From Candidatus Poseidoniaceae archaeon (GTDB lineage: Archaea > Thermoplasmatota > Poseidoniia > Poseidoniales > Poseidoniaceae), in the NCBI GenBank assembly GCA_965659685.1, contig CBFHXB010000009.1:17508-81507 (forward strand): a stretch of 64,000 nt of DNA, in the 5' to 3' direction. A program made the position numbers and the translations under genes. The notes under the pieces are model-generated. The model saw only the letters and a list, made by a program, of their open reading frames with translations, made no database searches and had not been told where the DNA came from. Below, piece after piece: positions 29,649 to 41,781 of the stretch (position 1 is the first letter of the stretch; every line of letters starts with the position of its first letter).

Positions 29649-29963
29649 ATGGGCCAAGCCATGGTGGGCATCACCGACTCGGCCTGCACCGGGTGTGATC
29701 TCTGCATCCCCTTCTGTCCGTTCGAAGCCTTGCTTCCTCTGGCCGAGAACCCTGAGGGACGGAGCCATCCCAAACGTCCGGTGATCGTCGTTGAAGCCGC
29801 ATGCGTCGGCTGTTTGTCGTGCATTGGGTCCTGCCCGACCGGAGCCTTGCACGAGGTCCCGCTGCCGCCAAGCAACGAAACCTCTCCTCTGCTCGACCCT
29901 CCAGCACCTCCTGAAACAGAGCCTGTCCTCCGCTGGGGGCGCCGCGGAATCGGATGGGCCTGA
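29649..29963 (+). CDS. 2x[4Fe-4S] ferredoxin-like protein
   Basis: Carries two cluster motifs, CTGCDLCIPFCP and CVGCLSCIGSCP. The C-terminal tail is Pro-rich. Confidence 0.7.
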   Translation: MGQAMVGITDSACTGCDLCIPFCPFEALLPLAENPEGRSHPKRPVIVVEAACVGCLSCIGSCPTGALHEVPLPPSNETSPLLDPPAPPETEPVLRWGRRGIGWA

Positions 29964-29983
29964 AGCCTCAACCATTCCATTCG

Positions 29984-29991
29984 TTTATATA
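29984..29991 (+). promoter_or_regulatory. candidate archaeal TATA box for the Lhr gene
   Basis: tttatata at 29984-29991, 44 nt upstream of the ATG at 30035. It is one of very few A/T-only octamers in this GC-rich window. Confidence 0.4.
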
Positions 29992-30034
29992 CGTCACATC
30001 CACGAGGCCACGGCACGGGCGTCGTGAGAAAAAC

Positions 30035-33000
30035 ATGCCAGAAATCACTTACCTCGATTCGTTCGATGATACGGATGCCTTGGCGGCCCGTTTGAGCGAA
30101 CCTGTTCGACGTTGGTTCCTGGATACATTCCCAGATTTCACCGACCCGCAGAAAATGGCGATTCCGGCCATCATGGAAGGCGAACACCTCCTGCTCTGCA
30201 GCCCAACCGGTTCAGGAAAAACGCTCACAGCATTCCTGACGGTCATCGACGACCTGGTCCGAAAGGCACTCGATGGATCGCTCAAGGATCAGGTGTACTG
30301 CATCTACATCTCACCGATCAAAGCCCTCGCCAACGACATCGAGCGAAACCTGCTCGGGCCACTCGCTGAAATCAAAGAACGATACTTGCCGGACAGGGCC
30401 AAAGAAATTCGCGTCGGGTTGCGGACCGGAGACACCTCCCAATCCGACCGGCAGAAGATGCTCCGAAAGCCTCCGCACATCCTCATCACCACACCAGAAA
30501 GCATGGCCATCGCGGTTGGGTCCTCGAGGTTTCAACCGATCGTGTCCCGCGTCAAGTGGATGATCATCGACGAATTGCACAGTTTGGTCCCCACCAAGCG
30601 TGGCGTGCACCTGAGCCTGACCCTCTCTTTCCTCGACACCTTGCTGAAAGATCCCGTGCAGCGGATTGGAATTTCAGCAACGATGGAGCCACTGGACACG
30701 GTCGCGGAATACCTTGTGGCCAGCGACGACCGAGAATCGAGGGGCGAAGATCAGCGCATCATGGTCGCCAAAATTTCTGGGTCCAGGGAGCTCGACCTCG
30801 ACATTCTGATCACCCACCCACGTTTCGCCGACCGTTCTGTGGCGCAGACCCTGGAAGCCAACGTCGAGGCCATCGCGGACTTGATTTCGGCCCACACCAC
30901 GACCTTGGTCTTCGCCAACACGAGGAAAATGACCGAAACCCTCGTTCAACGCCTCAGGCCCTTCCTCGGTGAACTCATCGCCGGCCACCACGGATCGATG
31001 GACAAGAACATCCGACTCGAAGTCGAGCGGAAGTTGAAGTTGGGCCACCTCCGTGCTGTGGTGACCTCCTCATCGCTCGAAATGGGGATTGACATCGGTT
31101 CGGTTGATCTCGTCGTTCAGGTCGGTTCACCGGGAGACATCGCCACCGCACTCCAACGAATTGGGCGAGCAGGCCACCACGTCGGTGGAATTCCCCGCGC
31201 CCGTTTCTTGCCTTCTTCGGTGGACGATTTGCTCGAATTGGCGGCGTTGCAAGCCGCGATTCAAACCGGAGACATGGACCGTCTCTCGTTCCCGCAAAAC
31301 TGCCTTGATGTGGTGGCTCAATTCCTGATTGGCTTGGTCATCAACGAAGAACTCGACATCGACGAGGCCTACGAAATCGTGGTCAACGCGTGGAGTTACC
31401 GAAACTTCGCGTACGACGATTTCATCGAAGTCCTCGACCTGTTGGAAGACGAGCGTCGCATTTGGGTGGACTGGGAAGAGAACACCTTCGGAAAGCGTGG
31501 CTATTCCAGGATGATTTACTACACCAACATCGGGACCATCGCCCCTGACAATTCCTACCTGGTGTTCAACGCCGAAGGTTCCATCCTCGGAAAATTGTCC
31601 TCGTCCTTCGTTGCCAGCCTCCGCACCAGCGACGTCATCCTCCTCGGCGGTTCGACCTACCGAGTCAACAACATTCAGGGCACGCGGGTCAACGTCAGCA
31701 ACGTCACAGGATACCGTCCAACCGTGCCCTCTTGGTCCGGTGAAGCACGATCAAGGTCGGCTGAACTGTCGTCTTCCCTGCTCGACCTCATCGGCCGCTG
31801 TACGGTTGCTCTCCGACGAGAAGTCGATCCACGAACGGTCCTGAGCGAAGCCTATTCGTTGGGCCGGGATTCGGCCGAAATCATTGCACGTCATCTCGAG
31901 GAGCACGTGCTTACCACCTTCCAAGTGCCGGACAAAGACCGCATCTTGGTCGAACAAATTGTCGGCGGCGCTCATCCGACCTACCTCGTCACCACCTGCC
32001 GTGGCCGAGGGTTCAACACCGCCTTGGGTTACTTCATGGCGGGGCTGGCCGAGCGCGCGAGCATTCCGGTCATCGAGATGTCCTTCGACGAGAATGGACT
32101 TCTGCTTAAAACCGCACAAGACGTTGATCCCGGAGCCATGTACGAGGCCTTTGCTGCAGGCGACCACATGGAGGTCATCGAACGCTACATCATCGGCACC
32201 CAGATCTTCGCCAAGCGGTTCAGGGAAGTGGCCGGTCGGAGCCTGATCATCCCCAAGCGCATCGGTGCTGAGGAGATCAGCCCTCAACAATTCCAGCAGC
32301 GAGCCGACGCTTTGCTGAACCGACATCGCACCTTGGAGGGCTCCATCCTCATCCGCGAAGCGAAGAACGAGATCCTCTACGGCGACATTGACCTCGGTGG
32401 GTTGGAACAATTCCTCACGGCATGCCGCGAAGGGCAAGCACGCATCGTCCACATGCGAACGACGTTGCCGAGCAGGTTGGGCATGTCGCTCTACATGTCC
32501 GCGTTCGAAGACCTGATGTCGATGCGCACCCGCGCGTTCTTGGTCAAAGACATCGATCCTGCCATCCTTGAACGCCTCCTCGGCCGTCGTTCCCTCGCCA
32601 CCGAGATGACGAACGAACAAATCGAGGCGTACTACACGGACAAAGTTCCCGTCCCCACGGATGCGGACACCTTGTTGGCCCTCATGGAGCACGGTGGAGG
32701 TCTGGACCGCTCCTTTGACAATCCGTTGTACCGAGAGAAATTGAGCGGAATCGACCATGACGTGATTCGCGGTTGGGTGGAAGAACTCTGCACCACCGGA
32801 CTGATCACCAAAATCGAAGGGACCGGAATGGAGGAATTGGACGGCAAGTGGTTCAGTTCCTACATGGGTGAAATCCACGGCACCCTCGGTTGCTTGGCGG
32901 CCAACGGTGGCCGTGACGTGGAAGACTTGCTGACCTTGCATACGGCAGGTTTGACCTACCGGATGGCTTCCGCGTTCAACGGCACGAAGGTGAGTGATTG

Positions 33001-35323
33001 GAACGACATGGAACTTGGCGACCCGCAAGAGGCGCTCCGGGTCAAACTCATCGAAATGCTCGGTTCCGAAGGGCCTCAAACCGCCGACCAACTCGAGGAA
33101 CGCCTGCCGTTCCCACGTACGATGGTTGAGCGCACCATTCACCAACTCGAGACACGGAACGTCATCAGCATCGGCTTCTTCACGCAAACCGAGGAAGCCG
33201 AATTCATCCTCAAGGTGGACGAACACCGCATCACGGGTGGCGAGGAGGACGTCGTCGAGTACCGTTCAATCCAGAACATGATCCTCGACAAATCGTTCAC
33301 GATGTACGACGACGTCGACCAAGCCTTCGACAAGCACCTCCTCTTCCAGAAGCAGCAGGAACTGCTCTACCGCATCAACGATTTCAGGTTCAGCGATTGG
33401 AAGGACCTCCAACTCGACCGCGACATCGTCAACGGTCGTCTCCTTCACAACCGTCAGGGCTACACCACACGGCGCAACCTCCCCATGCTTCTCGGCCTGA
33501 AGCCAGAGCCCTACATCGGAGCGATAGAAGCCGACCTGCTGGACCGCATCCTGCCGGGCGAAGAACCCCAACGCTCAGAAATTGTGGCGATGTATCCCAA
33601 GGGCGAGGAACACAGACAACTGCAGCGCGACGTGAAAAACGGTCTCGCAAATTTGGAACGCCAATTGTTGGTCGCAAAGCAATTCGAAGAAGTCCCTGGA
33701 CGGCGCCGACGCTTGTCCTTCTACCACCGGGTTCACGAGGTCTACGACGGCCTTTCCTTTGAGGACGCCTTGTGCGAAGTGATTCACCGCATTGGTCCGA
33801 TCAAAGCCAACACCCTTCGCTTCTACGTCAGCAGAGCCTACGAAGAATTGGTCATCGCCCTCAAGGCGCTGGAAGCCGATGGGCGCATCAGCAGGGTGAC
33901 CACCCTCGTGCCGGAACCAGAGGACTTCTACTGCGCTCCGCAGGAAGTGGGCACGTTCCGTCGTGCCCGACGAGAGGACCGCGTGATGCGCATCCTGACC
34001 CAATCCGACCCTTACGTCTCGCGCTTCATATGGGAAGTCAGGGCCATGCTCGACCGAGGCTGGTACCTGCCGGTGTTCAAGGGAATCGATCCCGTGGGCA
34101 AGGTCCTGATGTTCAAGGTCAACGATTACCTCGAAGTGAAGGACATTCAGATTCCAGCCGCCTATCTGGAAGAGTTCTGTGAGTCCTTCGACGTCCTGCT
34201 TGAAAACCACGCTGAGCAATTGGTTGACGTTGCGGTCTTGAGCGGCATCAACGGACAACCGATCAGTGAAGTGGACCAAGTGTGGCGGGATGCGCTGAGC
34301 GGCATCGGTTTCAAGCTCGCAGGCGAGCGAATGATTCGTGGCGGAATCGTCGAAACACAGCCCAGAACCCTGGCCGATCGCGCCTTGTTCCACAAGCATC
34401 ACCTGCATCAATCGTCGAGGTTGGAAAACGAATTCCTCGCCCTCAAGCGCATTCGTGAGGTGCGCGATGACTTTGCGCTTCGTGGCCGAGCTGAGCTCTA
34501 TCGCGTGGACCTCAAGAGCATGGCGAGCGCCAACCGCCTCCACCAAGGCGTCAACCTTCGAGGGCACCAATCATGGGCTTCCTACGAGCATTTCCAGACC
34601 TTGTTGGCCATACGCGGCATCGAACCGGAGGAAGACCTCGCGGACGTGTTGGATTTCTTCTCAAACCACTCCGACCATGAGTTGTTCAAGGAACGCTATG
34701 CGTTGAGCCAATCCGAATTTCGAAAATTGGTGCAACCCTTGATTCGCACCGGTCACATCGTTCAAGATTTTAGAGGCGGATTCCGCACCGTCGCGGAGGA
34801 CCCGAGTTTGGACCGCTCCGTGCTGAGGAAAGAATACCTCCGGTCCCTTGTCGCCGATTTCCCGGTGATGACCATCAAGCAATTGCTGTCCTTGGCAGGG
34901 AGCCATTTCAAGCCAGAGGAAGTCAAAGCCATTTTGACGGAATTCGAGGAAGACGAGACGCTGATCAAGGGGTTCCTCATCGACGATCTGCACGAGGTCT
35001 GTTGGGGTCGAAAGGACCTGCTGGCGGACGCCAAGGAACTCCAACCCATGCGTGACTTCGTGCTTCCGCCTTCCGACCCAATCGCACCGTATTTCTCGGG
35101 CACCCTCAAGGAGAAGTTCGGGTTCGGAAGCGCCTATCTTGTGTTCAAGAACGGAGAACCTGCGGCGGCCTTCAAGGCCAACACCCGAAACCGTATCATC
35201 GAGGTCACGGATTACGAAGGACGTGAGGACGCATGGCGAATCGTCAAGGAATTCGCGTGGGAGCACCAAATGCCGCTCACGTCAGAAATACGCATCGGCG
35301 GGCGACGATTGAGCAGCTCTTGA
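30035..35323 (+). CDS. lhr: Lhr-type superfamily-2 DEAD/DEAH helicase with a very long C-terminal extension
   Basis: 1762 aa from the ATG at 30035. Helicase motifs are CSPTGSGKTL (I), IIDELHSL (II), ISATM (III), HHGSM, and VTSSSLEMGIDIG/RIGRAGH (V/VI). About 800 further residues follow the Lhr core. Confidence 0.85.
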   Translation: MPEITYLDSFDDTDALAARLSEPVRRWFLDTFPDFTDPQKMAIPAIMEGEHLLLCSPTGSGKTLTAFLTVIDDLVRKALDGSLKDQVYCIYISPIKALANDIERNLLGPLAEIKERYLPDRAKEIRVGLRTGDTSQSDRQKMLRKPPHILITTPESMAIAVGSSRFQPIVSRVKWMIIDELHSLVPTKRGVHLSLTLSFLDTLLKDPVQRIGISATMEPLDTVAEYLVASDDRESRGEDQRIMVAKISGSRELDLDILITHPRFADRSVAQTLEANVEAIADLISAHTTTLVFANTRKMTETLVQRLRPFLGELIAGHHGSMDKNIRLEVERKLKLGHLRAVVTSSSLEMGIDIGSVDLVVQVGSPGDIATALQRIGRAGHHVGGIPRARFLPSSVDDLLELAALQAAIQTGDMDRLSFPQNCLDVVAQFLIGLVINEELDIDEAYEIVVNAWSYRNFAYDDFIEVLDLLEDERRIWVDWEENTFGKRGYSRMIYYTNIGTIAPDNSYLVFNAEGSILGKLSSSFVASLRTSDVILLGGSTYRVNNIQGTRVNVSNVTGYRPTVPSWSGEARSRSAELSSSLLDLIGRCTVALRREVDPRTVLSEAYSLGRDSAEIIARHLEEHVLTTFQVPDKDRILVEQIVGGAHPTYLVTTCRGRGFNTALGYFMAGLAERASIPVIEMSFDENGLLLKTAQDVDPGAMYEAFAAGDHMEVIERYIIGTQIFAKRFREVAGRSLIIPKRIGAEEISPQQFQQRADALLNRHRTLEGSILIREAKNEILYGDIDLGGLEQFLTACREGQARIVHMRTTLPSRLGMSLYMSAFEDLMSMRTRAFLVKDIDPAILERLLGRRSLATEMTNEQIEAYYTDKVPVPTDADTLLALMEHGGGLDRSFDNPLYREKLSGIDHDVIRGWVEELCTTGLITKIEGTGMEELDGKWFSSYMGEIHGTLGCLAANGGRDVEDLLTLHTAGLTYRMASAFNGTKVSDWNDMELGDPQEALRVKLIEMLGSEGPQTADQLEERLPFPRTMVERTIHQLETRNVISIGFFTQTEEAEFILKVDEHRITGGEEDVVEYRSIQNMILDKSFTMYDDVDQAFDKHLLFQKQQELLYRINDFRFSDWKDLQLDRDIVNGRLLHNRQGYTTRRNLPMLLGLKPEPYIGAIEADLLDRILPGEEPQRSEIVAMYPKGEEHRQLQRDVKNGLANLERQLLVAKQFEEVPGRRRRLSFYHRVHEVYDGLSFEDALCEVIHRIGPIKANTLRFYVSRAYEELVIALKALEADGRISRVTTLVPEPEDFYCAPQEVGTFRRARREDRVMRILTQSDPYVSRFIWEVRAMLDRGWYLPVFKGIDPVGKVLMFKVNDYLEVKDIQIPAAYLEEFCESFDVLLENHAEQLVDVAVLSGINGQPISEVDQVWRDALSGIGFKLAGERMIRGGIVETQPRTLADRALFHKHHLHQSSRLENEFLALKRIREVRDDFALRGRAELYRVDLKSMASANRLHQGVNLRGHQSWASYEHFQTLLAIRGIEPEEDLADVLDFFSNHSDHELFKERYALSQSEFRKLVQPLIRTGHIVQDFRGGFRTVAEDPSLDRSVLRKEYLRSLVADFPVMTIKQLLSLAGSHFKPEEVKAILTEFEEDETLIKGFLIDDLHEVCWGRKDLLADAKELQPMRDFVLPPSDPIAPYFSGTLKEKFGFGSAYLVFKNGEPAAAFKANTRNRIIEVTDYEGREDAWRIVKEFAWEHQMPLTSEIRIGGRRLSSS

Positions 35324-35377: not shown

Positions 35378-38300
35378 ATGCAGCATGGCTCACATCGCGC
35401 ACTCGCCTTGGTCAGCTTGCTCGTCTTGTCCACCACGATGGCCGTGGTGGCACCGACCGCTGGAGCAGAATCTTCCTTGGACATTCAGGTCATTGACACC
35501 AAAGTCAACCCCGCGAACAACCACACATACCACCTCCTTTCCGCCTCGTCGTGGACCGAAGCCGCCCAAGCCGCGCGCGGATTGGAAGGTTTCCTCGTGA
35601 CTGTGGACGACGAAGCCGAGAATTCGTGGCTCCACGCCACGTGGGGGAACGATGGCAACGTGACCCGGCACCTCTGGACCGGTCTCAGCGACGCGGGCGA
35701 AGAAGGCGTCTTCCGTTGGCATGACGGCACGCCGTTCCTCCATCGACAATGGGGCGAGAACCAGCCCAGCATGACCGATGTTGAGGACTACGTTCACATC
35801 ACTGGACCCAACATGGGATCCATTGAACCAGGCGACTGGAACGATTTGGAAAACGACCCGCAGTATTTCCCGGTGTACGGCGTGGTGGAACTTGGCCCGG
35901 GTGCAGATTTTGCCCTCCGCTTTGATGGCGATGACGACCACGTCATCACGTCCGACGACACCTCCCTCCAAGCCCCCGCGGCCTCGGGTGAACTCACCAT
36001 TGAAGCAAGGATTCAGCCGGTTGAAACCGACGGAATCCACACCATCGTGATGTACGGCGACCACGGTTACGGCCTGTACCTCGACGACGGACGACTCGGT
36101 TACGCCTCTGAATACAGCCTCTCGAAGAACCCCCTGAGCGATGTCAACATGACCGTCCCGGAAGGCGTCTGGTCAACGGTCGCTGTCGCCGTGAACGCGA
36201 CCACCGGTGGCACCTTCTTCCTCAACGGGGAAGCCATCGGTTCGTTTGGAGCAGACCAAGCGGAGATCCCCGCAGGAGATTTCGGCTCAAACGATTGCTA
36301 CGAGGCCGGACTTTCGTGCGAGAACCTTGTGATTGGACGCCATGGAGCCGGTGCAGACCGTTACCACTTCAGCGGCATGATTGACGACGTGAGCATCGCC
36401 GCCATCGACGCACGCATCGCAGGGCCAAACGGCAGCATCGGCCTCGGTCCGTTCACAGAAACGTTGTCTGAATGGACCTTCGGGGAAGGTGAAGGTGACC
36501 AAACCTACGACCACATGAACCGCACGGGAGCCATCGAAGGCGCTGCATGGGTGATGCCTGACGGATCCATCGTTGCCCAGGCCATGGAACTCGAGAACGG
36601 TGACGAACTCAACCTGGACGGCATCAGCGCCGGAGACACCTTGCTGTTTTTCTCTGAACTGCCTGAGTACACCCGTAGCTTGAGCGTCCAAGCCTTTGCA
36701 TGGGCCGAAAACGAAGGCAAGGAAGATGGAGAAGCGGAATTCGTGTTGTACCACGACGTGGACCGTGTCCCTTCGGCCTGGTCCCACATGGACGAGGTCG
36801 AGGACTGGGGCTGGGGCGGCGTGTTTGCCTCCTACACGTGGCCAGAAGCCGGCGTGCATTGGTTTGCACTCCAAGCAACGTCCTCCCTGGATGAATTCAG
36901 CCTGTGGGCGGAGTGGGAAGTGGCCGAAGCCCCTCCGTCCTTGGACGAGATGATTGAACTCAAACACGGCATTCCCGTGGCCGACCAAGACCTCCAAGGC
37001 CAGCGGGAGAACGAATTTGGCGAATCCATCCAATATTACGTCAACGTGACCGAACCGCTCGCTGACCTTTCGGTCAAGACCTACGGTGGTGAAGGCAACG
37101 TGGACCTCGCCATCTCCTACGGCGGCCCGCCTGACCCCTTCGGCATCTGGGGTGAATGGGACATCGGGTTCCCAAGTGTGTCTGGTGATGGAGACGAGGT
37201 CGAATTCGAGGACTGGTCTGTCGGCATGGGGACGGAGGAAGAAGTCCACCTCTACAACCTGCAACCCGGGACCTACTACATCACGGCCTACACGTGGCGC
37301 ATGGCCCGCGATTACAGCATCGTGGCAGACCTGACGCCTCTGCCGACCAATGCGGAAGCGTCCGATGCCATCGAGCTCACGCCCGGGGTTCCCTACGGGC
37401 CATTCTCGGGCTACGAAGGACTGAACCAATATTTTTCCATCGACGTGCCGGAAGGCACCGAACGGCTCGAGATCAGCCTTGACGACGGCACCGGCGAAGC
37501 CGACCTGCACCTCGCTTACGAATCCACACCAACCTCGACGGTGTTCGATGAGCGAAGCGTGGCACCCGGACCGAACGACAGGGTGGCCTTCAACGATCCA
37601 ACACCTGGCACATGGATGATCCTCGTCCACACCGATCGCGTGTTCAGCGGCACCAGCATCCTTGCAGAATTCACCGACCGTTACGTGTGGGACTGGGACG
37701 GTGAGCCCATTCAGCTGTTCAACGGTGAGTCGATCGAAGGCATCGAAGCCCCCGAGGGCACAATGCTCGAATTCTATGGAATCCTCGAGCGCCCTGTTTC
37801 CCCGTTGGAGATCGACACCTGGGGTGAATCCGGCGAAGTTGAACTCGACGTGGAAGCCGAGCCTTACGACTGGGAGACCTTCTTTGACGACGGACCACGC
37901 GGTCGCCAATTTGACGGCGAAAGCTGGATGGAAGGCGAGGGCGTCGAGTGGACGTGGTCCATGAACACTGCAGCAAACGGCCGTTTTGACGTTACTGTGG
38001 ACGTCTTGGAAGACGTGAGCGGCTTTGGCATCGTGGCCTCTTGGACCGAATCGGAGCTCCCGCCCGTTGACGACGATGACGACGACGACGCAGGCAACGA
38101 AGAGCCGTTCGAACCAGAAGGGTGCCTCGAACGAACGAAGGCGTGGTTCGAATCCTTGGACCGGGACCGTGATGGCATCGTGACCTTGGACGAACATCGA
38201 CCTCATCCATCGACCGGCACCCCCGGTCAAGACCTTGACCTGAACGAAGACGAGCGTTTGCAGATGGGAGAGCTGGAAGTCGACCTGTGTTCGTGCAGCG

Positions 38301-38914
38301 AGGAATTCTGGTACATTTGGGAGCAAGCCGAAGACGTGGATGCCATCACCGTCGATGACCTGAGTGGCGTGGTGTACGTCAACGGCATCGACCTTGAAGC
38401 CATGGACCGTGACAACGACGGCGACATCGGCTTTGCTGAAGCCGAACGGCACAGCCTCGCGTGCACCACCACCTACGACCCTCTGGACCTCGATGGCGAC
38501 GGAGTCCCCAACGAGGAGGACGCGTTCCCAGAAGACCCCAAGGAAAGCGAGGATTCCGATGGCGACGGTGTTGGCGACAACGCCGACTTGGTGGCAGGCG
38601 TCAACGATTCGGTGGTGACTTACGGCGCAGTCGTTGCGGTGCTTGGATTGATTGTGCTGCTCTTGCTCACCATGTTGCGTCGAGGACCGGGCGGATCTCA
38701 AGCGGTCGACCCCTGGGCCGACATGGGCGACGAGAAGCAAATGCCTGAGTTGTTTGGACCATCACAGATGGCGACAGAGCACGAACCAAGGCTTGGGATG
38801 AACCCGCTTCAGGAGGAAGAAATTCCACCACGAGAAACGGAAATCCCCAGCATGACGGATCTCCCACCGCCCCTCGAAGAGGCCATTCCAAGTGGCCCCT
38901 TGGAATGGCGCTGA
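35378..38914 (+). CDS. large secreted type-I membrane protein: C-type-lectin-like, LamG-like, PPC-like, EF-hand and TSP3-like repeats, then a TM helix and cytoplasmic tail
   Basis: Signal peptide: ALALVSLLVLSTTMAVVAPTAGA. CTLD signature: WTEAAQAA..GFLVTV..EN.WL..LWTGLSD..EGVFRWHDG..W..NQPS..EDYVHI..GDWNDLEND. LamG-like: LRFDGDDDHV...LTIEARI...FSGMIDDVSI. PPC-like: QYYVNVTEPLADLSVKTYGGEGNVDLAISYG and QYFSIDVPEGTERLEISLDDGTGEADLHLAYE. EF loops: DRDRDGIVTLDE (38159-38194) and DRDNDGDIGFAE (38405-38440). TSP3-like: DLDGDGVPNEEDAFPEDPKESEDSDGDGVGDNAD. TM helix: AVVAVLGLIVLLLLTML followed by RR, then about 80 aa of tail. Confidence 0.8.
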   Translation: MQHGSHRALALVSLLVLSTTMAVVAPTAGAESSLDIQVIDTKVNPANNHTYHLLSASSWTEAAQAARGLEGFLVTVDDEAENSWLHATWGNDGNVTRHLWTGLSDAGEEGVFRWHDGTPFLHRQWGENQPSMTDVEDYVHITGPNMGSIEPGDWNDLENDPQYFPVYGVVELGPGADFALRFDGDDDHVITSDDTSLQAPAASGELTIEARIQPVETDGIHTIVMYGDHGYGLYLDDGRLGYASEYSLSKNPLSDVNMTVPEGVWSTVAVAVNATTGGTFFLNGEAIGSFGADQAEIPAGDFGSNDCYEAGLSCENLVIGRHGAGADRYHFSGMIDDVSIAAIDARIAGPNGSIGLGPFTETLSEWTFGEGEGDQTYDHMNRTGAIEGAAWVMPDGSIVAQAMELENGDELNLDGISAGDTLLFFSELPEYTRSLSVQAFAWAENEGKEDGEAEFVLYHDVDRVPSAWSHMDEVEDWGWGGVFASYTWPEAGVHWFALQATSSLDEFSLWAEWEVAEAPPSLDEMIELKHGIPVADQDLQGQRENEFGESIQYYVNVTEPLADLSVKTYGGEGNVDLAISYGGPPDPFGIWGEWDIGFPSVSGDGDEVEFEDWSVGMGTEEEVHLYNLQPGTYYITAYTWRMARDYSIVADLTPLPTNAEASDAIELTPGVPYGPFSGYEGLNQYFSIDVPEGTERLEISLDDGTGEADLHLAYESTPTSTVFDERSVAPGPNDRVAFNDPTPGTWMILVHTDRVFSGTSILAEFTDRYVWDWDGEPIQLFNGESIEGIEAPEGTMLEFYGILERPVSPLEIDTWGESGEVELDVEAEPYDWETFFDDGPRGRQFDGESWMEGEGVEWTWSMNTAANGRFDVTVDVLEDVSGFGIVASWTESELPPVDDDDDDDAGNEEPFEPEGCLERTKAWFESLDRDRDGIVTLDEHRPHPSTGTPGQDLDLNEDERLQMGELEVDLCSCSEEFWYIWEQAEDVDAITVDDLSGVVYVNGIDLEAMDRDNDGDIGFAEAERHSLACTTTYDPLDLDGDGVPNEEDAFPEDPKESEDSDGDGVGDNADLVAGVNDSVVTYGAVVAVLGLIVLLLLTMLRRGPGGSQAVDPWADMGDEKQMPELFGPSQMATEHEPRLGMNPLQEEEIPPRETEIPSMTDLPPPLEEAIPSGPLEWR

Positions 38915-38919
38915 GCCAC

Positions 38920-39888
38920 CTAGGACCCTTTTGGCCGGAGGGCCAAACGGATGGGTCGCATCAGCCGGAGGACGTGCGCGTGGAGTTCCGGCAGGATTCT
39001 GAACATCACCAAGGCCAAGCCGTACATCGCAAGAAGGGCGACCACACGGGCGGCATACGTGTGGGCAAATTCGAACATCCGTAATCCGAAGACTTCCACT
39101 TCGCCATGGATGGCGTGAAGCCACACGATGCCGGCGTTTCGGAAGATGTTCAGCACGTGGATCAAGGGTAGGGTCAACAGCAGGGCACGCAGGCGTCGCT
39201 TCCATGGCATGTCCAACACCGCGATGGCCCCCACGAAGACGATCATCGACTGGAGGGCCGTGCAAGCCAACACAATGTTGACCCCAACAGAGGAGCCGTC
39301 GGCCCACACCAAGTCGGTTTGAATCGGATATTCACCGAAGGGCTGGCTCCAAAACCAGACGTTACCTTCCCATTCTTGCCAGAGGACCTGACCCTCTGGC
39401 GTGCTGACGTAAGTCTCCCCAACGTGAACATCACCGGCGCCGGTGAACCTCAACATCAGTGCAGATTGAGAAGCGACGGCGACGATGGCCAAGCGGCTCA
39501 ACCACGGCACGTGGTAGGTCGCAAGGTAGGGGAGCCCCGCCAAAGCCACGGCACCCTTGAGCCAACGAAGCGCCGATTTGTCACGCACCTCCTCCACGTT
39601 CCACTCCCACCAAGCCACGCCCAAGGACGCCGGCAAGGCTGCGCTGAGCATCACGGTCAGCACGGGGTCTCCCTCCTGCCAATAGCCGTCTGCCATGAGG
39701 AAAAATCCGAAGCCGACCAAGGGCCAACCCACGAGGCTCGCGCGTTGCACGAGCGGGTGCTTCGACAGCGAGAGGCCCAAGAGCAGCATGCCCGAGGCAA
39801 GCAGTCCAATGGACTCCACGGACGCTCCCGCCATGGCCCCAAATGCTCGGCGTTGGTCTTCAACCCTCTGCGTTGAACCGCGCACCAT
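38920..39888 (-). CDS. archaeosortase/exosortase-family transpeptidase-like membrane protein
   Basis: Polytopic. It has a candidate catalytic Cys in IVLACTALQSMIVF and a conserved-type PLIHVLNIFRNAGIVWLH (N..R then H) about 35 aa downstream. I chose the ATG at 39888 because the 446-aa track ORF runs antisense into the next gene. Confidence 0.6.
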   Translation of the reverse strand: MVRGSTQRVEDQRRAFGAMAGASVESIGLLASGMLLLGLSLSKHPLVQRASLVGWPLVGFGFFLMADGYWQEGDPVLTVMLSAALPASLGVAWWEWNVEEVRDKSALRWLKGAVALAGLPYLATYHVPWLSRLAIVAVASQSALMLRFTGAGDVHVGETYVSTPEGQVLWQEWEGNVWFWSQPFGEYPIQTDLVWADGSSVGVNIVLACTALQSMIVFVGAIAVLDMPWKRRLRALLLTLPLIHVLNIFRNAGIVWLHAIHGEVEVFGLRMFEFAHTYAARVVALLAMYGLALVMFRILPELHAHVLRLMRPIRLALRPKGS

Positions 39889-39933: not shown

Positions 39934-40548
39934 ATGGACGGTCCGTTGGTGCACGCCCTCCGCTCGTTCCCCGGGGGGGCGGTGGATGCACCCATCGCCT
40001 TCCTTGACCGTGACGGCGTGCTCAACGTGAGCCTCGACGGCTACGTCAACACCCCTGAAGAATTGAGCTTGATTCGAGGCACAGCGGAGGCAATGCGAGC
40101 ACTCCGCGAGGCCGGTTTCTTGCTGTGCGTGGTCACCAATCAGTCCGCCGTGGATCGAGGGCACTGGGGCGAGGAACGCCTGCATCAGATCCACGACCGG
40201 CTCCATGATGTGCTCAAGGAAGACGATGCACAACCCGACCTCATCCTCTCCTGTCCACATCTGCCATGGGCTCGGTGCGGTTGCCGCAAGCCGGGAACTG
40301 GAATGTTGGAACTGGGGTCACACCTGCTTCGCTCATCGGACGGTTTCGGACCGATGCGAGAACGATGGACAGAACCGTATGCAGGAACCGCACATGCGGG
40401 CGACGTCATGGTCGGCGATCGAAGGTCTGACGTTCAGGCCGGTCTGGATTTCGGCGCACGTTCCTTCTTTTCACGAAGGGACGTTGGCCTGTCCCACCTG
40501 GTGGCGCGTGTGCTTGATTTCGACGACCAAGGTGACGGAGTGGGCTGA
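39934..40548 (+). CDS. HAD-IIIA phosphatase, GmhB (D,D-heptose 1,7-bisphosphate phosphatase)-like
   Basis: Contains IAFLDRDGVLN, CVVTNQSAV, CGCRKPGTGM and MVGDRRSDVQAG. Confidence 0.7.
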   Translation: MDGPLVHALRSFPGGAVDAPIAFLDRDGVLNVSLDGYVNTPEELSLIRGTAEAMRALREAGFLLCVVTNQSAVDRGHWGEERLHQIHDRLHDVLKEDDAQPDLILSCPHLPWARCGCRKPGTGMLELGSHLLRSSDGFGPMRERWTEPYAGTAHAGDVMVGDRRSDVQAGLDFGARSFFSRRDVGLSHLVARVLDFDDQGDGVG

Positions 40549-41781
40549 ATGGGTTGGCTGGGCTTGGACGACACCGACCACTTGGGGGGCGGTTGCACCA
40601 CGTGGACCATGCACGTCGTGTTGTCCAACCTTCCACGCGGCGTTCGACCGCTGAACGATCCATGCCTCGTGCGCTTGTATCCCATGGCCAAAGCAAGAAC
40701 GCGAGGGAACGCCGCCCTCGCCGCTGAACTCCACGTGGACATTCCTCGAGAGGAATGGTTCGCTTGGCTCCAACAGATGTGGAAGGAACATGTTGCTCCC
40801 CTTGCAGGCCGACGTACGGAATCAAGCCACGCCACCAGGAAACAGGTCGCGAGCGATCCCGGCATGGTCTGGTTTGAAAACAAGCCCAGTAGCCGGTTCT
40901 ATAGCCTTGCCGTTCGTCAGGAAACGTCGCTTGCTGAAGCACCAAAACCCGATTGGGAAGCAGGCGGGTTGGGAAAAATCGGAGCGATTGCGGCCGTGTC
41001 TTGGCCAAATGAAGTCAGCACATGGGAGGGCATCGCGTGGCGTGGCGAATTGGACGGGCCGCGGACCCTCGACGAAAACGTGTTGAAGCATCTCGATGGA
41101 GACCAACGCCTCGTCGCTTGCCGAGACCCGCGTCAAGGACGTGGACTCCTCGCCCCCAGAGGTACTTCACCGGTGCTGTTTGGCCTTCGAGGAACCGTAC
41201 GCAGCGCCGTGAAGGACGGCATGGCGGCGCTCATGGCAGGGAGCGGAACCGAACCCAACACAGGTTCCTCCTTGTTTCGCACGAACCAAGGAAGCGGAGA
41301 TCATCTGACCGCGCCCACATCGGCTACCGTGGAGAAGGTCCAGGTGCTCCGAGGAGGGCACGTTGCCTTGACCACGAGCGATGGCACATGGTTGGCCTTC
41401 GCTCCCTCTGGCCCGGTCCGAGACCTCGCCGCTCAGCTCATGCCCGGCGATCGTGTGCTGGGAATTGGTCTGGTCGGTGAGGACGAGGGGCGCAAAGGTC
41501 GCCACCTTGAGGCGTTGAAACACCTCAGTGGACCCGTTCGTCAACGACGTCGACCGTCCTGCACTGCCTGTGGTCGTCGCATGAAATCAGCAGGCCGAGA
41601 CCAAGGATTGCGCTGCCCCACATGCAAACACCGGGACGTGGATCGCTGGGTCGGGGAGGAGGTCATGCCAACGGCGTGGATTCAACCGCCCGTGGACCGT
41701 CGACGCCACCTCGCCCCCGACATCAACACGTGGGCTTCAGAACGGCCTGACTGGACCGAACAAGGACCGGCACCTTCCTAA
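40549..41781 (+). CDS. tiaS: tRNA(Ile2) 2-agmatinylcytidine synthetase TiaS
   Basis: Begins MGWLGLDDTDHLGGGCTTW. Also contains LVRLYPMAKARTRGNAA, the C-terminal Zn ribbon CTACGRRMKSAGRDQGLRCPTCKHR, and PPVDRRRHL. Confidence 0.85.
   Translation: MGWLGLDDTDHLGGGCTTWTMHVVLSNLPRGVRPLNDPCLVRLYPMAKARTRGNAALAAELHVDIPREEWFAWLQQMWKEHVAPLAGRRTESSHATRKQVASDPGMVWFENKPSSRFYSLAVRQETSLAEAPKPDWEAGGLGKIGAIAAVSWPNEVSTWEGIAWRGELDGPRTLDENVLKHLDGDQRLVACRDPRQGRGLLAPRGTSPVLFGLRGTVRSAVKDGMAALMAGSGTEPNTGSSLFRTNQGSGDHLTAPTSATVEKVQVLRGGHVALTTSDGTWLAFAPSGPVRDLAAQLMPGDRVLGIGLVGEDEGRKGRHLEALKHLSGPVRQRRRPSCTACGRRMKSAGRDQGLRCPTCKHRDVDRWVGEEVMPTAWIQPPVDRRRHLAPDINTWASERPDWTEQGPAPS

What the first reader, a model, noticed from the sequence alone, without database searches (positions are those of the whole stretch)
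35378..39888. Archaeosortase-like gene tail-to-tail with the giant surface protein, which lacks a canonical extreme-C-terminal sorting signal
The archaeosortase-like ORF (Cys in LACTALQS, then NIFRN, then H) ends 6 nt from the stop of the surface-protein gene, in convergent orientation.

Established knowledge: known archaeosortase and exosortase substrates carry a short motif (for example PGF), a TM helix and a basic cluster at the very C-terminus.

Here there is a TM helix followed by RR. I see no PGF/PEP-type motif before it (the preceding sequence is NDSVVTYG), and about 80 more residues follow the basic cluster.

There are two readings. The neighbour may not be the substrate. Alternatively, this may be a sorting-signal variant in which processing would release the ectodomain from a retained cytoplasmic tail.
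Basis: partly seen in the sequence, partly recalled or inferred. Interest (0 to 1): 0.6.

Follow-up and report, generated by a model that had tools for sequence, protein, structure and literature searches.

The report
Archaeosortase A beside unrelated surface protein
The membrane gene is an ordinary archaeosortase A of a marine Group II archaeon. The big surface protein next to it is almost certainly not its substrate: it is a normal membrane-spanning protein whose gene was inserted into a conserved housekeeping gene block.

Summary
The 1178-aa secreted protein (35378-38914, +) stops 5 nt from the stop of a convergent membrane-protein gene (38920-39888, -).

- **The enzyme is archaeosortase A.** It scores 105.9 bits on TIGR04125 (cut-off 75). 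No other sortase subfamily model reaches its cut-off.
- **It is the only copy in this Poseidoniales genome.** Six credible PGF-type C-terminal tails lie on other contigs: a cupredoxin, SCO1/SenC, PhoX and three unknowns.
- **The neighbour is not a PGF-CTERM protein.** It has no P-[GASE]-F anywhere and no PGF-CTERM model hit. After the TM helix and RR it carries a 76-residue tail whose membrane-proximal and terminal blocks are invariant within the genus.
- **This layout is the norm here.** By a heuristic screen, 48 large proteins in the genome have TM, basic residues and a cytoplasmic tail (median 81 aa).
- **The adjacency is inherited gene order.** The block Lhr-ArtA-HAD-TiaS is conserved across the whole order. 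The surface gene sits between Lhr and ArtA only in part of one family. In 11 of 20 genomes sampled from other genera, ArtA abuts Lhr directly. In one genome, two unrelated genes separate the pair.

The variant-signal reading is very unlikely. This is ordinary.

The parts
35378..38914 (+). Gene for a 1178-aa type I membrane surface protein. It has a predicted Sec signal peptide and a very acidic ectodomain (21% D+E, 3.7% K+R), with one C-terminal TM helix and a cytoplasmic tail.
   Evidence: ORF and translation. Composition and coordinates. Orthologues at 31-77% identity occur in 8 genera of one Poseidoniales family.
35378..35467 (+). Predicted N-terminal signal peptide (residues 1-30, ...APTAGA/ESS).
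   Evidence: Read from the sequence; inference, no predictor was run.
35543..35842 (+). C-type lectin domain (residues 56-155).
   Evidence: Pfam PF00059, 31.7 bits against a cut-off of 22.6.
37427..37630 (+). PPC (pre-peptidase C-terminal) domain, best of two matched stretches (residues 684-751).
   Evidence: Pfam PF04151, 57.3 bits, 2 stretches.
38486..38590 (+). Asp-rich calcium-binding-type repeats (DxDGDG, thrombospondin type 3-like), residues 1037-1071.
   Evidence: This is the only part of the protein that matches other surface proteins across the order. There are weak MtsD and Omp28 hits.
38603..38626 (+). Juxtamembrane segment NDSVVTYG. Orthologues have S-V-x-N-D-[IL]-x-Y-[GSA]. There is no Pro-Gly-Phe.
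38627..38683 (+). TM helix AVVAVLGLIVLLLLTML followed by RR (stop-transfer anchor).
38684..38911 (+). Cytoplasmic tail of 76 residues. In 9 sequences of the genus the proximal block (GPGG..VDPWA..GDEK.MP.LF) is conserved. The middle is hypervariable with indels. The end block (MTDLPPxLxxALPxxPLEWR, 38852-38911) is conserved.
   Evidence: Alignment. No paralogue of this region in the genome (phmmer). No Pfam match.
38915..38919 (.). 5-nt spacer between the two convergent stop codons.
38920..39888 (-). Archaeosortase A gene (322 aa from ATG 39888; alternative start ATG 39834). Invariant residues in 21 orthologues are Cys209 (39262-39264), Arg250 (39139-39141), His244 and His276.
   Evidence: TIGR04125, 105.9 bits against a cut-off of 75, and TIGR04178, 62.1 against 23. 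Single copy in the genome. Present in 39 of 41 relatives. Invariant residues.
29954..35323 (+). Lhr-type helicase gene. In most of the order this gene is the direct tail-to-tail neighbour of ArtA.
   Evidence: Translation. Synteny.
39934..41781 (+). HAD-type phosphatase (39934-40548) and TiaS agmatidine synthetase (40549-41781). These housekeeping genes flank ArtA on the other side, order-wide.
   Evidence: Pfam. Synteny.

Best explanation
The membrane gene encodes the single housekeeping archaeosortase A of a Ca. Poseidoniales (Marine Group II) archaeon.

By analogy with Haloferax volcanii ArtA, it should cleave proteins that end in a PGF-type motif, TM helix and short basic tail, and transfer them to a lipid anchor. 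Its likely substrates are about six such proteins encoded elsewhere in the genome. They include a cupredoxin, an SCO1/SenC-like protein and a PhoX phosphatase.

The adjacent 1178-aa protein is not a substrate. It is a conventional type I membrane protein. A signal peptide exports an acidic lectin/PPC/calcium-repeat ectodomain. A stop-transfer TM helix with RR holds the protein in the membrane. A 76-residue tail stays in the cytoplasm, and its conserved proximal and terminal blocks probably bind an intracellular partner.

The two genes are neighbours because the surface-protein gene was inserted at the convergent Lhr/ArtA junction of an order-wide conserved housekeeping block. The insertion happened in the ancestor of one family, and the gene has been inherited vertically since then, with some losses.

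What is shown and what is inferred:
- Shown: enzyme class, absence of the PGF motif, the separate PGF set, the synteny pattern and the tail conservation.
- Inferred: the enzymatic activity, the membrane topology, the tail's binding role and the direction of the gene gain.
For: 1. **Enzyme class.** TIGR04125 (archaeosortase A) scores 105.9 bits (cut-off 75). The next subfamily models all fall far below their cut-offs: XrtH 37.1 against 86, heimdallarchaeosortase 34.7 against 130, ArtE 14.9 against 95, ArtB 13.4 against 150. There is one copy in the genome. Cys209, Arg250 and His244/276 are invariant in 21 orthologues.

2. **A separate substrate set.**
   - TIGR04126 (PGF_CTERM) hits one protein over its cut-off and two just under it, all on other contigs.
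   - My regex screen finds 7 tails of the form P-[GS]-[FM] + TM + basic end. One of these (C26) is probably a multipass false positive.
   - The annotated candidates are a cupredoxin, SCO1/SenC and PhoX.
   - PGF-CTERM hits occur in 36 of 41 relatives, and none lies beside ArtA.

3. **The neighbour fails the signal definition.** It has no PGF-CTERM hit at E<=1 in NCBIfam or Pfam and no P-[GASE]-F anywhere. An HMM built from this genome's own PGF tails does not hit it at E<=10. 76 residues follow RR.

4. **The layout is generic.** By a heuristic screen, 48 proteins of at least 500 aa in this genome have a C-terminal TM, basic residues and a tail of at least 16 aa. The median tail is 81 aa.

5. 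**The tail is under constraint.** Its proximal and terminal blocks are invariant across 9 sequences of the genus, while the middle varies with indels. Seven orthologues from six other genera end in a different conserved module, LMGMxxxxGxExxEWPxGSGxxWxR...W.

6. **Synteny.** The block TrkA-TrkH-AAA-aaRS-Lhr-[SURF]-ArtA-HAD-TiaS...ADSL-Dph-PsmA is conserved in all 20 loci sampled from 19 other genera.
   - The surface gene is present in 8 of these loci. Counting this window's genus, it occurs in 8 genera.
   - It is absent in 11, where ArtA abuts Lhr directly. One locus is uninformative.
   - In G021, two unrelated genes separate ArtA from the surface gene.
   - A four-marker tree puts all carriers in one clade. 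All 8 genomes of the sister family keep ArtA without the surface gene.

7. **Literature** (review PMC6098224).
   - ArtA genomes hold 1-52 dispersed PGF substrates.
   - Permuting PGF to PFG blocks processing.
Against: - The pair is tightly apposed in all 8 genera that carry the surface gene, except in G021. That is somewhat more than a random neighbour would show.
- A juxtamembrane motif (ND-[IL]-x-Y) is conserved among the orthologues. Nothing excludes that a divergent ArtA recognises it.
- H. volcanii has a proven ArtA substrate whose tripartite signal is internal (PMC6098224). Distance from the C-terminus alone therefore does not disqualify a substrate.
- No experimental data exist for any Poseidoniales protein.
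- The PGF set rests partly on my own regex, and only one member passes the curated cut-off.
- The genome is 87% complete.
Confidence: 0.88

Rival explanations
1. The neighbour is a non-canonical ArtA substrate. ArtA would recognise the conserved ND..Y motif, TM helix and RR as an internal sorting signal. It would cleave there, lipid-anchor or release the ectodomain, and leave the 76-residue tail behind as a separate membrane or cytoplasmic fragment.
For: - Convergent adjacency is kept in 8 genera.
- TM and RR are present.
- The juxtamembrane motif is conserved.
- There is a precedent for an internal tripartite ArtA signal in H. volcanii (PMC6098224).
Against: - There is no PGF-like tripeptide and no model hit.
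- The H. volcanii precedent still has PGF and arose from a strain-specific gene fusion.
- PGF-to-PFG permutation abolishes processing.
- The same TM + RR + tail design occurs in about 48 unlinked proteins.
- ArtA is retained in 11 of 20 genomes sampled from other genera that lack this gene.
- No other protein in the genome shares this C-terminal region, so no cognate motif family exists.
Confidence: 0.04
2. The genes are functionally coupled without an enzyme-substrate relation. One option is convergent transcription across the 5-nt spacer, giving antisense interference or shared termination. Another is that the surface protein needs ArtA-anchored partners.
For: - The spacing is very tight (5 nt).
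- Spacing is similarly tight in the other carrier genera.
Against: - Spacing is also tight between ArtA and Lhr where the surface gene is absent (about 20-80 nt between alignment ends). That fits a streamlined genome rather than a specific coupling.
- G021 tolerates two genes inserted between the pair.
- No terminator or RNA evidence was examined.
Confidence: 0.05
3. The membrane protein is an inactive or differently specialised exosortase-family member and not a working ArtA.
For: - It is divergent: 105.9 bits is only moderately above the cut-off of 75.
- Only one PGF-CTERM protein passes the curated cut-off in this genome.
Against: - The Cys, Arg and His positions are invariant.
- It is single-copy and retained in 39 of 41 genomes of the order.
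- It co-occurs with PGF-CTERM hits in 36 of 41 genomes.
Confidence: 0.03

Closest known systems
Archaeosortase A (ArtA, TIGR04125) of Haloferax volcanii, with its PGF-CTERM substrates
   Same: - It scores above the curated ArtA cut-off, and Cys, Arg and His are invariant.
- It is a single housekeeping copy.
- Its PGF-type candidate substrates are dispersed through the genome, including a cupredoxin-type protein.
   Different: - It is divergent in sequence.
- The substrate set is small (about 6), and only one member passes the curated PGF-CTERM cut-off.
- There is no synteny with pssA/pssD-type genes at this locus. The neighbours are Lhr, HAD and TiaS.
- No member of this order has been tested experimentally.
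H. volcanii Tat substrate with an internal PGF tripartite signal (Abdul Halim et al. 2017, as summarised in PMC6098224)
   Same: A TM helix and basic cluster are followed by a long C-terminal extension, which is the formal layout of the neighbour here.
   Different: - That protein keeps the PGF motif, and its extension is a strain-specific fusion to a NifU-domain gene.
- Here PGF is absent. The tail is conserved across genera and typical of about 48 proteins in the genome.
Type I single-pass membrane proteins with cytoplasmic tails, including the shared-tail surface proteins of Poseidoniales noted earlier in this scan
   Same: - Signal peptide, large acidic ectodomain, one TM helix, basic stop-transfer residues.
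- A Pro- and acid-rich linker, then a conserved terminal block.
   Different: - In this genus the terminal block (MTDLPPxLxxALPxxPLEWR) is private to this orthologue group.
- It is not the widespread PxGWTxEQWxxYG module.
- Orthologues in other genera carry a WW-like EWPxGSGxxWxR module instead.

Membership tests
Archaeosortase A (TIGR04125) | Whole-protein score at or above the curated cut-off of the ArtA model, and higher than for any other exosortase or archaeosortase subfamily | tested here: met
   105.9 bits against a cut-off of 75. Every other subfamily model scores far below its own cut-off. The six-frame genome search gives the same result.
Archaeosortase A (TIGR04125) | Exosortase/archaeosortase signature region with conserved Cys, Arg and His | tested here: met
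   TIGR04178 scores 62.1 bits against a cut-off of 23. Cys209, Arg250, His244 and His276 are invariant in 21 Poseidoniales orthologues. Residue-by-residue equivalence to the H. volcanii active-site residues was not mapped.
Archaeosortase A (TIGR04125) | Co-occurrence with PGF-CTERM proteins in the same genome | tested here: met
   One TIGR04126 hit over the cut-off and two just under it in the own genome. Six credible PGF-type tails. Hits in 36 of 41 relatives.
Archaeosortase A (TIGR04125) | Proteolytic cleavage and lipid transfer activity | not testable with these tools
   This needs biochemistry or genetics. A CDP-alcohol phosphatidyltransferase is present elsewhere in the genome, along with a borderline PS-decarboxylase-like hit.
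PGF-CTERM sorting domain (TIGR04126 / PF18204), asked of the 1178-aa neighbour | Pro-Gly-Phe-type signature motif directly before the TM helix | tested here: not met
   The preceding sequence is NDSVVTYG, and there is no P-[GASE]-F anywhere in the protein. None of the orthologues has the motif.
PGF-CTERM sorting domain (TIGR04126 / PF18204), asked of the 1178-aa neighbour | Hydrophobic TM helix followed by a basic cluster | tested here: met
   AVVAVLGLIVLLLLTML followed by RR. This feature is not specific: 48 other proteins share it.
PGF-CTERM sorting domain (TIGR04126 / PF18204), asked of the 1178-aa neighbour | Signal located at the extreme C-terminus | tested here: not met
   76 residues follow RR. 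Tails are 65-160 aa in the orthologues.
PGF-CTERM sorting domain (TIGR04126 / PF18204), asked of the 1178-aa neighbour | Match to the curated models or to this genome's own PGF-tail profile | tested here: not met
   No hit at E<=1 in NCBIfam or Pfam. Not among the hits at E<=10 of the HMM built from the genome's PGF tails.
Dedicated sortase-substrate gene pair (enzyme encoded next to its own target) | Enzyme and target co-occur, and are gained and lost together across genomes | tested here: not met
   ArtA is present without the surface gene in 11 of 20 genomes sampled from other genera. The flanks Lhr, HAD and TiaS are conserved just as well. Two genes intervene in G021.

The most novel reading that the evidence does not exclude
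The conserved ND-[IL]-x-Y + TM + RR unit could be a PGF-less, internal archaeosortase signal. On this reading, Poseidoniales ArtA would cut the lectin-bearing ectodomain from a retained, conserved cytoplasmic tail. That would be a regulated shedding or lipid re-anchoring step for a type I receptor-like protein.
Probability: 0.03. Interest if true: 0.7.

Novelty: new member of a known kind. Interest (0 to 1): 0.15.

Why it matters
It matters little beyond annotation.

- The result shows that Marine Group II archaea carry a standard single ArtA system with a small, dispersed PGF-CTERM substrate set.
- It also shows that gene adjacency to ArtA should not be used to nominate substrates in these streamlined genomes. 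ArtA sits in a fixed housekeeping block.
- The more interesting biology is incidental. Most large surface proteins of this organism are type I proteins with conserved cytoplasmic tail modules rather than sortase-anchored proteins.

Tried and rejected
- **Search for a cognate motif.** I ran phmmer with the last 103 residues (juxtamembrane segment, TM and tail) against all 8570 ORFs of the genome. Nothing came back below E=0.01 except the protein itself, so no motif family can be derived.
- **Pfam scans of the tails.** Scans of this protein's tail and its orthologues' tails at E<=10 gave no meaningful family.
- **Regex for ND..Y before a TM helix.** It found only one other protein (C1, 990 aa, SNDSLF). 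That is too little to call a family.
- **C26 228-aa 'PGF' tail.** I rejected it as a substrate because the protein looks multipass.
- **The 446-aa reading of the ArtA frame.** I rejected it. The model and the orthologue alignments start near residue 125-154, and the extension overlaps the HAD gene.
- **Primary paper on the internal-signal substrate (PMC5350275).** It is not held, so I used the review.
- **Literature search for archaeosortase together with Poseidoniales.** No papers.
- **Not run.**
  - Structure prediction.
  - The large protein-database searches.
  - Neither would bear on the enzyme-substrate question.
Full report
**What is there.** The window comes from a Candidatus Poseidoniales (Marine Group II) metagenome-assembled genome. 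The assembly has 1.89 Mb in 35 contigs and is 87% complete. Two genes make up the finding.
- ORF 35378-38914 (+) encodes a 1178-aa protein.
- ORF 38920-39888 (-) encodes a 322-aa membrane protein.
- Their stop codons are 5 nt apart.
- The minus-strand frame stays open up to 40260. The extra 124 codons overlap the divergent HAD gene and are not covered by the family model or by orthologue alignments. I take ATG 39888 as the start, with ATG 39834 as the alternative.

**The enzyme.** Against NCBIfam the protein scores 105.9 bits on TIGR04125, archaeosortase A (cut-off 75). It scores 62.1 bits on the exosortase/archaeosortase signature TIGR04178 (cut-off 23). All other subfamily models score far below their cut-offs: XrtH, heimdallarchaeosortase, XrtX, pacearchaeosortase, ArtE and ArtB.
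- It is the only such gene in the genome.
- A homologue is found in 39 of 41 genomes sampled across the order, nearly always as one copy.
- In an alignment of 21 orthologues from different genera, Cys209, Arg250, His244 and His276 are invariant.

I conclude it is a bona fide ArtA orthologue. Its activity is inferred from H. volcanii ArtA, as reviewed in PMC6098224.

**The cognate substrates are elsewhere.**
- A six-frame search with TIGR04126 (PGF_CTERM) finds one tail above the cut-off (contig C10). Two more lie just below it (C3, C21), and weaker ones are on C19, C11 and C16.
- A regex for P-[GAS]-[FLYWM] + hydrophobic stretch + short end, applied to all ORFs, recovers these six plus one on C26. 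The tails read SPGFG, APGFA, GPGFV, VPSFA, SPGMA and LPGFG.
- The C26 protein looks like a multipass membrane protein, so I discount it.
- The candidates include a plastocyanin-type cupredoxin, an SCO1/SenC-like protein and a PhoX alkaline phosphatase.
- PGF-CTERM hits occur in 36 of 41 relatives. Comparing coordinates, none lies near ArtA in any genome.
- This matches the known pattern of ArtA as a housekeeping enzyme with 1-52 dispersed substrates per genome (PMC6098224).

**The neighbour is not a PGF-CTERM protein.**
- It gives no PGF-CTERM hit at E<=1 in NCBIfam or Pfam.
- It contains no P-[GASE]-F tripeptide at all.
- A profile built from this genome's own PGF tails does not hit it at E<=10.
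- 76 residues follow the RR.
- None of 16 orthologues has a PGF motif. Their juxtamembrane sequence is S-V-x-N-D-[IL]-x-Y-[GSA].
- Permuting PGF to PFG is enough to block ArtA processing in H. volcanii (PMC6098224).
- The one known substrate with an internal signal keeps PGF and is a strain-specific gene fusion.

**The C-terminal layout is the norm in this genome.** I ran a simple hydropathy screen. It required a length of at least 500 aa, an N-terminal hydrophobic segment and an acidic body. It also required a single TM helix in the last 260 residues, followed by basic residues. It finds 48 proteins with a cytoplasmic tail of at least 16 aa. The median tail is 81 aa and the range is 16-203. 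Only 6 proteins have a shorter end. The protein in question is a typical member of this set. The screen is heuristic and its counts are approximate.

**The tail is conserved, so it is not a leftover of a sorting signal.** Nine sequences of the genus share 72-77% identity overall.
- The membrane-proximal block LRRGPGG..VDPWA..GDEK.MP.LF is essentially invariant.
- So are the last 20 residues, MTDLPPxLxxALPxxPLEWR.
- The 30-45 residues between them vary freely and carry indels.
- Seven orthologues from six other genera have longer tails that end in another conserved module, LMG[MS]xxxxGxExxE[WYH]PxxSGxxWxRxxxxxxW.
- That module also ends two unrelated large proteins of this genome, on C17 (1806 aa) and C2 (1222 aa).
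- No Pfam family matches these tails.
- No other protein in the genome shares this protein's C-terminal 103 residues.

**Why the genes are neighbours.** I fetched 14-20 kb around ArtA from 20 genomes of 19 other genera. Thirteen window proteins were then mapped onto them by tblastn.
- The order TrkA-TrkH-AAA-aaRS-Lhr-ArtA-HAD-TiaS...ADSL-Dph-PsmA is conserved throughout the order.
- The surface gene lies between Lhr and ArtA in 8 of these loci, which come from 7 genera of the window's own family.
- In 11 genomes ArtA is directly tail-to-tail with Lhr. These are all 8 genomes of the sister family, the one genome of a third family and 2 genera of the window's family.
- One contig ends at ArtA and is uninformative.
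- In G021, a GST-like gene and a 398-aa gene sit between ArtA and the surface gene.
- In relatives outside the carriers, a full-length search finds only the short Asp-rich repeat of the surface protein, in other proteins.
- A tree built from four flanking markers places all carriers in one clade. The pattern fits one gain and up to two losses.

The adjacency is therefore inherited gene order. It follows an insertion at a convergent junction, a position where an insertion disturbs no promoter (this last point is inference). It is not enzyme-substrate linkage.

**Mechanism proposed.**
- ArtA processes the PGF-tailed proteins (inferred).
- The 1178-aa protein is exported by its signal peptide. 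It displays a C-type lectin domain (PF00059), two PPC domains (PF04151) and Asp-rich calcium-type repeats.
- It stays anchored by its TM helix. Its tail blocks face the cytoplasm, probably as docking motifs (inferred).

**Comparison and novelty.** The enzyme is a new member of a known family. The neighbour is one more type I surface protein. The functional pairing that made the finding interesting is not supported. Earlier notes from this scan describe shared cytoplasmic tail modules in other Poseidoniales genomes. I saw the same PxGWTxEQWxxYG module on six proteins here, but this protein does not carry it.

Noticed in passing
Own genome, outside the window (e.g. G000 C4, C5, C6, C11, C14, C17, C20, C2, C1, C18): About 48 large predicted type I surface proteins have cytoplasmic tails that end in a few recurrent modules.
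- LPxGWTxEQWxxYGxQWL: 6 proteins.
- WW-like GTEWYEDxxGTWWYR..W: about 8 proteins.
- QGYxxxxAxxYxxQY repeats. The tail of the C1 2257-aa protein hits Pfam UBA at 28.8 bits.
- Zn-ribbon ends: 3 proteins.

   Followed up: partly
window 38852-38911, and loci L048-L055: Orthologues of the surface protein switch their terminal tail module between genera. This genus has MTDLPPxLxxALPxxPLEWR. The other genera have LMGMxxxxGxExxEWPxGSGxxWxR...W. The window's version may be a shortened derivative of the latter.
   Followed up: partly
window 29954-35323: The 1789-aa Lhr-type helicase aligns over its full length (query 1-1786, 57-73% identity) in genomes across the whole order. Its long C-terminal half is therefore a conserved Poseidoniales feature and not a local oddity.
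   Followed up: no
L053 8761-9420; L054 12359-12958: In several other genera a gene of about 200 aa lies between ArtA and the HAD (GmhB-like) gene. It has an NGGSA motif and could be SIS/GmhA-like; I did not verify this. It is missing in this genus, where ArtA and HAD are divergent and only 45 nt apart.
   Followed up: no
L050 10771-12755 (G021): A GST-like 240-aa gene and a 398-aa gene are inserted between ArtA and the surface-protein gene in one genus. The same convergent junction has therefore accepted insertions more than once.
   Followed up: no
Own genome: C1 974 aa, C2 1633 aa, C2 813 aa, C2 831 aa, C5 912 aa: Five large acidic proteins end in a TM helix and a 6-12-residue basic tail but have no clean PGF motif (e.g. 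GGFGLPSVSG..., GLFGGPAGG...). They could be degenerate ArtA signals or simple tail anchors.
   Followed up: no
Own genome C3:10587-10913 and C3:53566-53841: The genome has one CDP-alcohol phosphatidyltransferase hit and a borderline PS-decarboxylase-like hit (22.3 bits, cut-off 22). These are possible counterparts of the PssA/PssD lipid partners of ArtA. They are not linked to artA.
   Followed up: no
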